Positions 40,054 to 40,809 of a stretch of DNA of 43,051 nt are shown here, piece by piece. The stretch is taken from sequence record OR844702, one strand, 5' to 3'. The stretch is from Escherichia phage ECO104 4-5-2. The position numbers and the translations under genes are program-made. Below the pieces are notes generated by a model that saw only the letters and a program-made list of their open reading frames with translations, did no database searches and was not told where the DNA came from. Within the stretch, counting starts at the first letter, position 1, and every line of letters starts with the position of its first letter.

Positions 40054-40809
40054 ATGTTTGATTTAACTACTACTAACGAAGTACAGACTATGACCAGCCG
40101 TGAGATTGCTGAGTTGACTGGTAAGCGGCATGATAATGTTAAGCGTACTATAGAAGACCTGCTGGACAAGGGTTTGATTGAATCTCCTCAAATTGAGGAA
40201 GTTCGAACAGCGACTAATGTAGGTAAGTGTTATGCGGTTGGTAAACGTGACAGCTTTGTTATTGTGGCACGTCTCAGCCCGGAGTTCACAGCTCGATTAG
40301 TTGACCGCTGGCAGGAACTTGAGCAGAAGCAGCAAGTACCGGCTTTAAACCTGAATGACCCTAAACAGCTATTAGGACTTCTCCAGAACTACGCAGAGCG
40401 CACGCTTGAGTTGGAGAATAAGGTTGTTGTACAGGACACGGTTATCGCTGTGCAGGAAGAGCAGATTCATAACATGCAGAACCTGTTCCATGAAGGTATG
40501 ACTCCCTCAGCGTTCGTTAAGCAGTTGAACGGCTGCAACGCTAACGCTATCTCTGGGTATCTGGAAGAGATAGGTTGGAGCTACTCACGTGAGCGTAAGG
40601 GCGGTAAGGACTGGTACGTATACGCAGGCATCCGCGATAAGTTCCTGCGTCAAACCAGTTACTGCCCTAACCTGAGTTACCCTCAGATTCGTGTAAGCAC
40701 CGTGCAACTCACTAAGCAAGGCGCTGTGAAGCTGTATGAAATGTACTTAGATGGTAAGCTCCCAATGAAGAAAGGTTGGGACGGTAAATTCACTCACGAC
40801 GTACTGTAA
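40054..40809 (+). CDS. Rha-family phage regulatory protein-like (antirepressor-like)
   Basis: N-terminus TSREIAELTGKRHDNVKRTIEDL matches the Rha-family signature; 251 aa. Confidence 0.6.
   Translation: MFDLTTTNEVQTMTSREIAELTGKRHDNVKRTIEDLLDKGLIESPQIEEVRTATNVGKCYAVGKRDSFVIVARLSPEFTARLVDRWQELEQKQQVPALNLNDPKQLLGLLQNYAERTLELENKVVVQDTVIAVQEEQIHNMQNLFHEGMTPSAFVKQLNGCNANAISGYLEEIGWSYSRERKGGKDWYVYAGIRDKFLRQTSYCPNLSYPQIRVSTVQLTKQGAVKLYEMYLDGKLPMKKGWDGKFTHDVL

What the first reader, a model, noticed from the sequence alone, without database searches (positions are those of the whole stretch)
40054..40809. Rha-family regulatory/antirepressor-like protein in the early region of an apparently strictly lytic phage
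The N-terminus (TSREIAELTGKRHDNVKRTIEDL) is a good match to the Rha-family signature usually seen in temperate phages, yet no integrase or repressor is present. In a lytic phage it may act in host or prophage takeover, for example antirepressor-type interference with resident prophages.
Basis: partly seen in the sequence, partly recalled or inferred. Interest (0 to 1): 0.45.

Follow-up and report, generated by a model that had tools for sequence, protein, structure and literature searches.

The report
Rha–KilAC regulator in lytic coliphage
The gene is a real two-module "Rha head plus KilAC/Ant tail" DNA-binding regulator in the early region of a strictly lytic T7-like coliphage, but such genes are already known from other lytic phages, so it is an ordinary, optional, frequently swapped accessory gene rather than a surprise.

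Summary
ORF 40054-40809 (+, 251 aa) matches Pfam Phage_pRha over the whole model (aa 13-91, E 8e-12, above the curated cut-off). The window is essentially the whole genome of a Slopekvirinae (phiKMV-like) podophage with its own RNA polymerase. No integrase or repressor was found among the roughly 30 ORFs scanned.

The protein has three parts: a Rha head, a ~40-residue central helix, and a well-folded C-terminal domain. That tail is a divergent ANT/KilAC domain. It gives no direct Pfam hit, but 35 of 50 full-length homologues hit PF03374.

The gene is the last in an early operon driven by a host-type promoter. In close relatives the same slot holds Rha + canonical ANT, KilA-N + the same tail (97% identical), an unclassified head + the same tail, or nothing. 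It is therefore a dispensable, mosaic cassette.

Rha/KilAC genes are already reported in lytic phages such as ICP1 and PAS7. The antirepressor or prophage-interference idea is untested and no better supported than an early DNA-binding regulator or an AriS-like SOS inhibitor.

Verdict: new member of a known kind, low to moderate interest.

Best side lead: a ~181-nt structured leader RNA with no Rfam match, present in three copies, two of them bracketing this operon.

The parts
40054..40809 (+). CDS of the 251-aa Rha-head / KilAC-like-tail protein (stop codon included)
   Evidence: ORF list and sequence; Pfam and PHROG hits; 7303 homologues at E<=1e-5
40040..40048 (+). Shine-Dalgarno-like GAGGGAGAG 5 nt before the ATG. 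The upstream ORF's stop (40049-40051) is 2 nt from the start, which suggests translational coupling.
   Evidence: Read directly from the sequence
40090..40326 (+). N-terminal Rha domain (aa 13-91), a predicted winged-helix DNA-binding head
   Evidence: PF09669 E 8.4e-12, full model coverage. Sub-threshold MarR/TrmB/HTH_20 hits fall on aa 9-46. 49% identity over aa 1-126 to a protein annotated 'DNA binding protein Roi' in Escherichia phage PA28. The AF2 model is poor here, pLDDT 36-62.
40360..40485 (+). Central long helix (aa 103-144), a probable coiled-coil or dimerisation linker. The recombination breakpoint with relatives lies at about 40414-40433.
   Evidence: AF2 secondary structure H103-144; nucleotide-identity breakpoints against L005, L003 and L002
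40486..40788 (+). C-terminal divergent ANT/KilAC-like domain (aa 145-245): helix-turn-helix, four beta-strands, then a helix
39060..39088 (+). Sigma-70-like promoter TTGACT-17-TATAGT, the probable promoter of the operon that ends with the Rha gene
   Evidence: Consensus scan, 10 of 12 matches. It lies inside a perfect 36-nt repeat also present at 38734. Function is inferred, not shown.
39108..39290 (+). Structured 5' leader RNA, copy A, upstream of the operon
   Evidence: Covariance model R1, 203 bits; covariation statistics
39295..40051 (+). Upstream ORFs of the same unit: 33-aa hydrophobic ORF (39295-39396), 81-aa ORF with a lipoprotein-like signal (39398-39643), 63-aa ORF (39643-39834), 67-aa ORF (39848-40051)
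   Evidence: ORF lists. PHROGs of unknown function match the 81-aa and 63-aa ORFs, the 67-aa ORF has only a borderline hit (phrog_14592, E 0.00096), and the 33-aa ORF was not scanned. No Pfam hits for the three scanned ORFs.
40860..40888 (+). Next sigma-70-like promoter TTGACG-17-TATAGT, just downstream of the Rha gene; it marks the end of the unit
   Evidence: Consensus scan
40941..41123 (+). Structured leader RNA, copy B, heading the next transcription unit
   Evidence: Model R1, 204 bits
5654..5836 (+). Structured leader RNA, copy C, in the middle region. It is not part of the Rha unit and is listed because it belongs to the same RNA family.
   Evidence: Model R1, 190 bits. The upstream TTGACA-17-TAAGAT was read from the sequence.

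Best explanation
The gene encodes an early-expressed, probably dimeric regulator built from exchangeable modules.

Shown:
- Architecture: a Rha-type head, a long central helix, and a compact tail that belongs by homology to the ANT/KilAC family. The tail begins with a MerR/excisionase-like helix-turn-helix.
- Position: the last gene of a block that follows a host-type promoter and a structured leader. The block lies about 3 kb from the G/C-run-rich non-coding region that probably marks the genome end, in a lytic phiKMV-like coliphage.
- Status in the clade: an optional mosaic cassette whose head, tail or whole gene differs between close relatives.

Inferred:
- It is transcribed by host RNA polymerase in the first minutes of infection.
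- It binds specific DNA through the Rha head, as Roi-type proteins of lambdoid phages are reported to do.
- Its conserved tail acts on a second partner, either more DNA or a host or prophage regulatory protein such as RecA/SOS.
- The overall role is to condition the cell for lytic growth. It has no role in a lysogeny decision because the phage has none.
- Its closest full-length relatives are in prophage-like contigs and bacterial genomes, so it was most likely acquired by recombination from the temperate-phage gene pool.
For: Domains.

Early-operon context: sigma-70-like promoters at 39060 and 40860, with tightly packed ORFs between them. The non-coding G/C-run region at 37047-37615 precedes the early genes.

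Lytic genome.

Slot variation in syntenic loci:
- P64441: Rha + canonical ANT (PF03374, E 2e-13).
- L003: KilA-N (E 6e-23) + the same tail.
- L005: KilA-N remnants + a tail 97% identical to the window's.
- PAS7: head with no Pfam hit + the same tail at 80% identity.
- L009: gene absent.

Closest relatives outside the clade are Aeromonas and Pseudomonas chromosomal or prophage-type proteins at 43-47% identity. The head is about 47-55% identical to Roi-type proteins of Stx and lambdoid phages.

Literature: KilAC tails carry their own activity while heads (AntA/B, Bro-N, pRha) are interchangeable (PMC9043618). In lytic ICP1 a Rha-domain gene and a Bro-N + KilAC gene replace each other at one locus and are suspected regulators (PMC8263062).
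Confidence: 0.5

Rival explanations
1. True antirepressor. The protein binds and inactivates CI-type repressors of resident prophages, or of prophage-borne defence loci, in the infected cell.
For: The family label: PHROG 63 is annotated 'anti-repressor Ant', and PF03374 is named after P1 Ant/KilA. The head is most similar to Roi-type proteins of Stx and lambdoid prophages, which live in the same E. coli hosts. Rapid head and tail swapping at one locus looks like an arms-race signature.
Against: The phage has no cognate repressor. The annotation is by name transfer, and no tested Rha-headed antirepressor turned up in the papers searched. Inducing a prophage offers no obvious gain to a fast T7-like lytic phage (inference). 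The variable heads (Rha, KilA-N) are DNA-binding-type domains, not known repressor-binding modules. The gene is dispensable in L009.
Confidence: 0.12
2. AriS-like SOS/RecA inhibitor. The KilAC tail damps the host SOS response during infection, for example to prevent RecA-dependent prophage induction or SOS-linked abortive responses, while the head regulates phage genes.
For: In Listeria phages the ANT/KilAC domain alone inhibits the SOS response. That activity is conserved between proteins only 30% identical, with AntA/B, Bro-N or pRha heads (PMC9043618). The window protein has the same head-linker-tail plan.
Against: The window tail is a divergent Gram-negative subfamily that does not pass the Pfam ANT model. 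AriS-like proteins were studied only in temperate phages of Firmicutes. In that study native AriS levels did not measurably inhibit SOS.
Confidence: 0.15
3. Kil-type host-growth or cell-division inhibitor. The tail is a toxic module that arrests division or growth early in infection.
For: The Phi11 Gp07 KilAC-type C-terminal domain inhibits growth and causes filamentation in E. coli (PMC5944126). The domain is named after P1 KilA, a host-killing function (my knowledge, not checked here).
Against: The evidence is overexpression data from a distant Gram-positive homologue. Stand-alone tails and Rha-tail proteins are common in bacterial chromosomes, which fits poorly with strong toxicity unless they are tightly repressed.
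Confidence: 0.1
4. Functionally decaying passenger. The gene is a recombination remnant from temperate phages that is carried along, is close to neutral, and has no role in this phage.
For: It is absent in L009, and the KilA-N head is split into two ORFs in L005/L006. The structure is highly mosaic.
Against: The ORF is intact, with a good SD, in at least seven related genomes. The tail is strongly conserved: 97% identity to L005 and 80% to PAS7, with 15 invariant columns across 18 sequences. A compact 43-kb lytic genome seldom keeps dead weight (inference).
Confidence: 0.08

Closest known systems
PAS7 gp WMX18779 ('putative DNA-binding protein') and P64441 XXQ42876 ('DNA binding protein'), from Slopekvirinae coliphages
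   Same: Same genomic slot in the early region of closely related lytic phages. PAS7 shares the tail (80% aa identity) and the first 8 residues. P64441 shares the Rha head and linker (53% identity over aa 1-124).
   Different: The PAS7 head has no Rha hit at Pfam level. The P64441 tail is a canonical ANT domain (PF03374, E 2e-13) with no BLAST-level similarity to the window tail. None of these proteins has been characterised.
AriS-like dual-function regulators of Listeria and Firmicutes temperate phages (PMC9043618)
   Same: The same plan: a variable N-terminal regulatory head (AntA/B, Bro-N or pRha) plus a C-terminal ANT/KilAC tail. The heads are interchangeable between related phages.
   Different: They come from temperate phages of Gram-positive hosts. 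The tail's SOS-inhibiting activity has been shown there and not here. The window tail is a divergent subfamily below the Pfam threshold.
Rha-domain gene and Bro-N+KilAC gene next to CRISPR-Cas/odn in the lytic Vibrio phage ICP1 (PMC8263062)
   Same: A strictly lytic phage carrying a full-length homologue (35% identity over aa 12-247). Alternative head types replace each other at one locus. The authors suspect a regulatory role.
   Different: A large myovirus with a different locus context (divergently transcribed next to an anti-satellite system). Function is untested there too.
Rha of phages P22 and phi80, and Roi of HK022 and lambdoid/Stx phages
   Same: The head belongs to the same Pfam family. 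It is 47-55% identical over about 90-126 residues to proteins annotated Roi in Stx and lambdoid phages.
   Different: Those are temperate phages, and the genes lie in the nin/late-regulation region. Only the head is shared; coverage is 36-50% of the query. The classical phenotype (interference with growth on IHF mutants, DNA binding by Roi) is recalled from memory (Henthorn & Friedman 1995; Clerget & Boccard 1996). It was not retrievable in the library and was not tested.
P1 Ant1/KilA and Phi11 Gp07 (namesakes of the ANT/KilAC domain)
   Same: The C-terminal domain family, by homology through intermediates. Also two-module proteins.
   Different: Their heads are AntA/B, KilA-N or Bro-N. Antirepressor activity (P1 Ant, from memory) or toxicity (Gp07) has been shown for them, not for this subfamily.

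Membership tests
Phage_pRha (Pfam PF09669) / Rha family | Score above the curated gathering threshold with full-length model coverage | tested here: met
   45.9 bits against a 29.9 cut-off, E 8.4e-12, model positions 1-91/91 on aa 13-91. 48 of 50 aligned homologues also hit.
Phage_pRha (Pfam PF09669) / Rha family | Winged-helix DNA-binding fold of the domain | tested here: inconclusive
   AF2 pLDDT is only 36-62 over aa 1-80. The best Foldseek hits are winged-helix proteins (SSV1 F-93, MarR, ArsR) but at E>=0.39. Sub-threshold MarR/TrmB/HTH hits fall on aa 9-46.
Phage_pRha (Pfam PF09669) / Rha family | Rha/Roi phenotype: DNA binding and interference with phage growth in IHF-deficient hosts | not testable with these tools
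   Needs genetics and biochemistry.
ANT / KilAC domain (Pfam PF03374) | Direct HMM match of this protein above the gathering threshold | tested here: not met
   No PF03374 hit at E<=1 on the full protein or on aa 145-251. The close orthologues P0003 and P0006 reach only E 0.024 and 0.014.
ANT / KilAC domain (Pfam PF03374) | Homology of the same region to proteins that do pass the threshold | tested here: met
   35 of 50 full-length homologues hit ANT, best E 1.5e-9. P0027 is 43% identical over the full length (E 6e-64), and its ANT hit at 165-249 (29.9 bits, cut-off 25.3) falls inside the C-terminal part of that alignment. The tail alone hits PHROG 63 positions 273-375 at E 1.5e-9. The tail-profile search returns proteins named 'antirepressor KilAC domain-containing'.
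ANT / KilAC domain (Pfam PF03374) | Detectable relation to the canonical ANT tail occupying the same slot in phage P64441 | tested here: inconclusive
   hhalign of the tail profile against the P64441 tail aligns only 29 columns (the HTH part) at E 0.057. BLASTP finds nothing.
Functional antirepressors (P1 Ant1 / P22 Ant type) | A cognate repressor or immunity region in the same genome | tested here: not met
   No repressor, integrase or immunity-type family was found among the early-region and middle-region ORFs scanned. The genome is collinear with the lytic phages PAS7 and P64441.
Functional antirepressors (P1 Ant1 / P22 Ant type) | Physical binding and inactivation of a repressor | not testable with these tools
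   Needs interaction and induction assays.
AriS-like dual-function regulators | Variable regulatory head plus C-terminal KilAC tail, with heads interchangeable among related phages | tested here: met
   Rha, KilA-N and an unclassified head sit on one tail type at a syntenic slot. Bro-N and ORF6N-named heads, and stand-alone tails, occur elsewhere.
AriS-like dual-function regulators | Tail inhibits the SOS response | not testable with these tools
   Shown only for Listeria proteins (PMC9043618).
AriS-like dual-function regulators | Encoded by a temperate phage cohabiting with other prophage elements | tested here: not met
   The host genome here is a lytic Autographivirales phage.

The most novel reading that the evidence does not exclude
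The slot is a rapidly retargeted counter-defence or prophage-interference cassette of lytic coliphages. A constant KilAC-like effector tail is steered to different DNA sites by swapping heads (Rha, KilA-N and others), in an arms race with resident lambdoid prophages or host defences. It may work together with the clade-specific structured leader RNAs that bracket its operon.
Probability: 0.12. Interest if true: 0.6.

Novelty: new member of a known kind. Interest (0 to 1): 0.25.

Why it matters
Rha/KilA-N/Bro-N heads joined to KilAC tails are among the commonest "regulator" or "antirepressor" annotations in phage genomes, yet almost none has a known mechanism. They are also routinely treated as markers of temperate lifestyle when therapeutic phages are screened. 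This locus shows again that such a gene can sit in a strictly lytic phage, so it is not evidence of lysogeny. The locus also offers a convenient natural experiment. Near-identical phages carry different heads on the same tail, the same head on different tails, or no gene at all. Comparing them on the same hosts could finally separate head function from tail function. Beyond that, the finding itself is ordinary.

Tried and rejected
- Foldseek against the PDB gave nothing below E 0.39.
- PDB sequence searches with the single protein, the full profile and the tail profile gave only sub-threshold GcrA DNA-binding-domain matches, E 0.02-0.34.
- hhalign of the tail profile against P64441's canonical ANT tail was inconclusive.
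- The search for related loci with the mixed alignment failed for lack of a conserved stretch. With the single protein it returned only distant loci at 29-41% identity, six of them on long contigs of 55-85 kb.
- The big protein search with the tail alone found only 2 candidates, a word-index limitation. The tail-profile search returned mostly short or partial proteins.
- Paper searches on 'Rha' with word-start matching mostly hit 'rhamnose' or DEAH/RHA helicases. The classic Rha and Roi papers are not in the library.
- I looked for repeated candidate operator sites for the protein in the early region. The repeats found were promoters and the leader RNA, not obvious operators.
- Rfam (E<=1) and ARAGORN found nothing relevant.
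- I considered that the 41-aa ORF 40820-40945 is a partner gene. I rejected it because it overlaps the next promoter and the start of the leader region, and the corresponding stretch in L009 reads in another frame.

Full report
**1. The observation**

It has an ATG start preceded by GAGGGAGAG, and it begins two bases after the stop of the upstream ORF. Pfam Phage_pRha (PF09669) matches residues 13-91 over the whole 91-position model at E 8.4e-12. The score is 45.9 bits against a curated cut-off of 29.9. PHROG 63, annotated 'anti-repressor Ant', matches residues 6-249 at E 5.8e-46. The Rha call is therefore solid.

No PF03374 hit appears at E<=1 on the protein or on its C-terminal 107 residues.

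**2. What genome this is**

The window is essentially one phage genome.
- It is 99-100% identical to the unannotated record 'Salmonella phage S.Kent 1-2-1'. In patches it is about 82% identical to Escherichia phages PAS7 and P64441. Both are classified in Slopekvirinae (Autographivirales), the phiKMV/KP34-like T7 relatives.
- Nearly all long ORFs are on the + strand. The window encodes a single-subunit RNA polymerase (PF00940, E 2e-90), a Toprim primase fragment, a DnaB-type helicase and a DNA polymerase A split by HNH endonucleases.
- Of about 30 ORFs scanned with Pfam or PHROGs, none hit an integrase or repressor family.
- PAS7 is described as lytic and is the type of the proposed genus Cepavirus (PMC11522302).
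- A 570-nt non-coding stretch with long G and C runs (37047-37615) follows the tailspike gene. It probably contains the physical genome end (inference). That places the Rha gene about 3 kb into the early region.

'Early region of a strictly lytic phage' is supported.

**3. Anatomy of the protein**

An AlphaFold model built from 50 homologues gives three parts.
- A poorly predicted head, pLDDT 36-62.
- A single long helix, residues 103-144.
- A confidently folded tail, residues about 150-245, pLDDT about 90.

Modelled alone, the tail reaches pLDDT 89 and pTM 0.80. Its topology is helix-turn-helix, four beta-strands, then a helix.

The tail has no close solved relative.
- Foldseek finds nothing below E 0.39.
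- A sub-threshold match to the GcrA DNA-binding domain recurs across homologues at residues 134-176.

The tail therefore probably starts with a DNA-binding-type HTH, but this is suggestive only.

Its family assignment rests on homology.
- 35 of 50 full-length homologues hit PF03374.
- The Aeromonas protein P0027 is 43% identical over the full length (E 6e-64). It passes the ANT threshold at residues 165-249, and that stretch falls inside the C-terminal part of its alignment with the window protein.

I therefore call the tail a divergent KilAC/ANT domain, with the direct-hit criterion recorded as not met.

**4. Transcriptional context**

The gene closes a tight block of small ORFs: a 33-aa hydrophobic ORF, an 81-aa ORF with a lipoprotein-like signal, a 63-aa ORF and a 67-aa ORF. 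The block follows a TTGACT-17-TATAGT promoter-like site at 39060-39088. A second such site, TTGACG-17-TATAGT, lies at 40860-40888, just after the gene. These are consensus matches in a region where such matches are barely enriched (12 found, 9.3 expected). Early host-polymerase transcription is therefore an inference, not a result.

**5. Comparative evidence: an optional, mosaic slot**

This is the most informative result. In syntenic early regions of related ~36-44 kb contigs and phages, the slot holds the following.

| Genome or locus | Content of the slot |
|---|---|
| P0002/L028, P0003 | Rha + the same tail, 76-82% identity (P0003's genomic context not fetched) |
| P0004/L029 | A different Rha variant + the same tail |
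| P64441 | Rha + a canonical ANT tail (PF03374, E 2e-13); the tail has no BLAST similarity to the window's |
| L003 | KilA-N (PF04383, E 6e-23) + the same tail |
| L005/L006 | KilA-N remnants split over two ORFs + a tail 97% identical to the window's |
| PAS7 | A head with no Pfam hit + the same tail at 80% identity |
| L009 | No gene; the flanking genes and leaders are conserved |

Nucleotide identity to relatives resumes at about 40414-40433, inside the central helix. All variants keep the first codons, MFDL(T/M).

Outside this clade, the nearest full-length relatives (43-47% identity) are chromosomal or prophage-type proteins of Aeromonas and Pseudomonas. The head is 47-55% identical to 'Roi' proteins of Stx and lambdoid phages. 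Tails of this subfamily also occur alone or behind Bro-N or ORF6N-named heads.

The gene is thus a dispensable cassette assembled by recombination from the temperate-phage pool.

**6. How it most likely works**

The shown facts are the architecture, the position and the mosaicism. From them, and from what is established for the families, my best reading is as follows. It is an early, probably dimeric regulator. Its Rha head binds specific DNA. Its conserved tail engages a second partner, either more DNA or a host or prophage regulatory protein. Together they condition the cell for lytic growth. Confidence is about 0.5 for the general statement and much lower for any particular target.

The rivals are narrower.
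- **A genuine antirepressor of resident prophage repressors (0.12).** This is name-based. No cognate repressor is present, and the benefit to a fast lytic phage is unclear.
- **An AriS-like SOS/RecA inhibitor acting through the tail (0.15).** It is supported by Listeria data showing that the KilAC domain alone blocks SOS and that heads are interchangeable (PMC9043618). Those data come from distant Gram-positive temperate phages.
- **A Kil-type growth or division inhibitor (0.10).** The support is that the Phi11 Gp07 tail causes filamentation in E. coli (PMC5944126).
- **A near-neutral passenger (0.08).** Strong tail conservation argues against this.

**7. Comparison with what is known, and novelty**

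Shuffling of Rha, KilA-N, Bro-N and AntA heads with KilAC tails in DNA-virus regulators has been described since Iyer, Koonin and Aravind 2002. That paper is cited within PMC9043618 and I did not read it here.

Presence in strictly lytic phages is also documented. ICP1 carries a 35%-identical full-length homologue. At one ICP1 locus a Rha-domain gene and a Bro-N + KilAC gene replace each other between isolates. PAS7 and P64441 already carry annotated 'DNA-binding protein' genes at this slot.

The finding is therefore a new member of a known kind. The only modestly new element is the clean in-situ series of head, tail and presence/absence variants within one lytic clade. That series would make head and tail functions separable by experiment. 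Interest is 0.25.

**8. Side finding: a structured leader RNA**

While looking for operator-like repeats I found a ~181-nt element present three times in the window, at 39108-39290, 40941-41123 and 5654-5836.
- Each copy starts 10-50 nt after a sigma-70-like promoter and ends at the Shine-Dalgarno sequence of the next ORF.
- A covariance model finds one to three copies per related locus or genome at equivalent positions. It finds none in the six distant Rha-encoding loci (29-41% identity; L015, L018, L022-L024, L026) that were searched.
- Across 14 distinct copies, 99% of the cells in 38 predicted pairs (7 helices) are paired, and 26 pairs show compensatory double changes.
- No shuffle out of 500 reaches the observed covariation. 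Slid-register controls score 0.03-0.08 against 0.517. One caveat is that the alignment was fitted to the model.
- There is no Rfam match at E<=1 in the searched region (36900-43051), which holds two of the three copies.

Two copies bracket the Rha operon, but the element does not travel with Rha genes elsewhere. It is probably a general cis-acting leader of this clade's host-polymerase transcripts, for stability, processing or put-like antitermination. This is untested.

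Noticed in passing
window 39108-39290, 40941-41123, 5654-5836 (+ strand): A ~181-nt structured RNA leader occurs in three copies. Each lies just downstream of a sigma-70-like promoter and ends at the SD of the next ORF. It has 7 helices and 38 pairs, 26 of them with compensatory changes across 14 distinct copies; 99% of cells are paired, and 0 of 500 shuffles reach the observed covariation. There is no Rfam match in the region searched (36900-43051, two of the three copies). It was found in every related Slopekvirinae locus examined (L001-L003, L005/L006, L009, L028, L029) and not in the six distant Rha-encoding loci searched. It is a candidate new cis-acting phage RNA family, for antitermination, stability or processing.
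   Followed up: partly
window 38734-38769 and 39051-39086: A perfect 36-nt direct repeat, AAATAGTTGTTGACTTCCCTGATTTAAGTAGTTATA, contains a TTGACT-17-TATAGT promoter-like site. An early promoter appears to be duplicated 317 nt apart.
   Followed up: no
L009 3119-5248 (IMG/VR contig 3300010266_000002), compared with window 39108-41123: A related ~43-kb phage contig keeps both flanking leaders and homologues of the lipoprotein-like and 63-aa ORFs, but has no Rha/KilAC gene between them. The slot can be empty.
   Followed up: yes
L005 2976-3832 / L006 5714-6570: In one relative the KilA-N head is split. A 75-aa ORF carries the KilA-N N-part and a 189-aa ORF carries the remainder plus the tail, with a 60-nt gap between them. 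This could be a pseudogene, an assembly error or a deliberate split.
   Followed up: no
window 40054-40077 and homologues: All slot variants begin with the same residues, MFDL(T/M)..., whatever head follows (Rha, KilA-N or unclassified). This suggests either a recombination boundary just inside the 5' end or a constraint on translation initiation or coupling.
   Followed up: no
window 39295-39396 and 39398-39643: Two ORFs lie directly after leader A. One is a 33-aa very hydrophobic ORF. The other is an 81-aa ORF whose N-terminus looks like a lipoprotein signal with an L-S-C lipobox. They could be membrane or exclusion-type early proteins. The features were read by eye. The 81-aa ORF has only a PHROG of unknown function, and the 33-aa ORF was not scanned.
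   Followed up: no
window 1681-5489: DNA polymerase A appears split into two ORFs (1681-2955 and 4097-5026). An HNH endonuclease ORF (3468-4010) lies between them and another (5013-5489) lies after them. The layout resembles the PAS7 and P64441 annotations.
   Followed up: no
window 37047-37615: A 570-nt non-coding region has long G runs and C runs and short direct repeats (TGTGCTGCCCTGTGCTCT-like). It lies between the tailspike gene and the first early ORF and is probably the genome terminus or terminal-repeat region.
   Followed up: no
GenBank records matched by window 1-25000 and 39000-42000: Fragments 99-100% identical to this phage are deposited under the names 'Listeria phage LM 4-11-1 / 4-14-1', 'Salmonella phage S.Kent 1-2-1' and several 'Escherichia phage ECO...'. 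One podophage infecting Listeria, Salmonella and E. coli is implausible. The host labels of these unannotated records look unreliable, possibly from mixed enrichments or carry-over.
   Followed up: no
window 10586-11320: A 244-aa ORF combines DUF3310, an HNH_3 endonuclease motif and a weak C-terminal HTH_3 match. The fusion is unusual and lies just upstream of the RNA polymerase gene.
   Followed up: no
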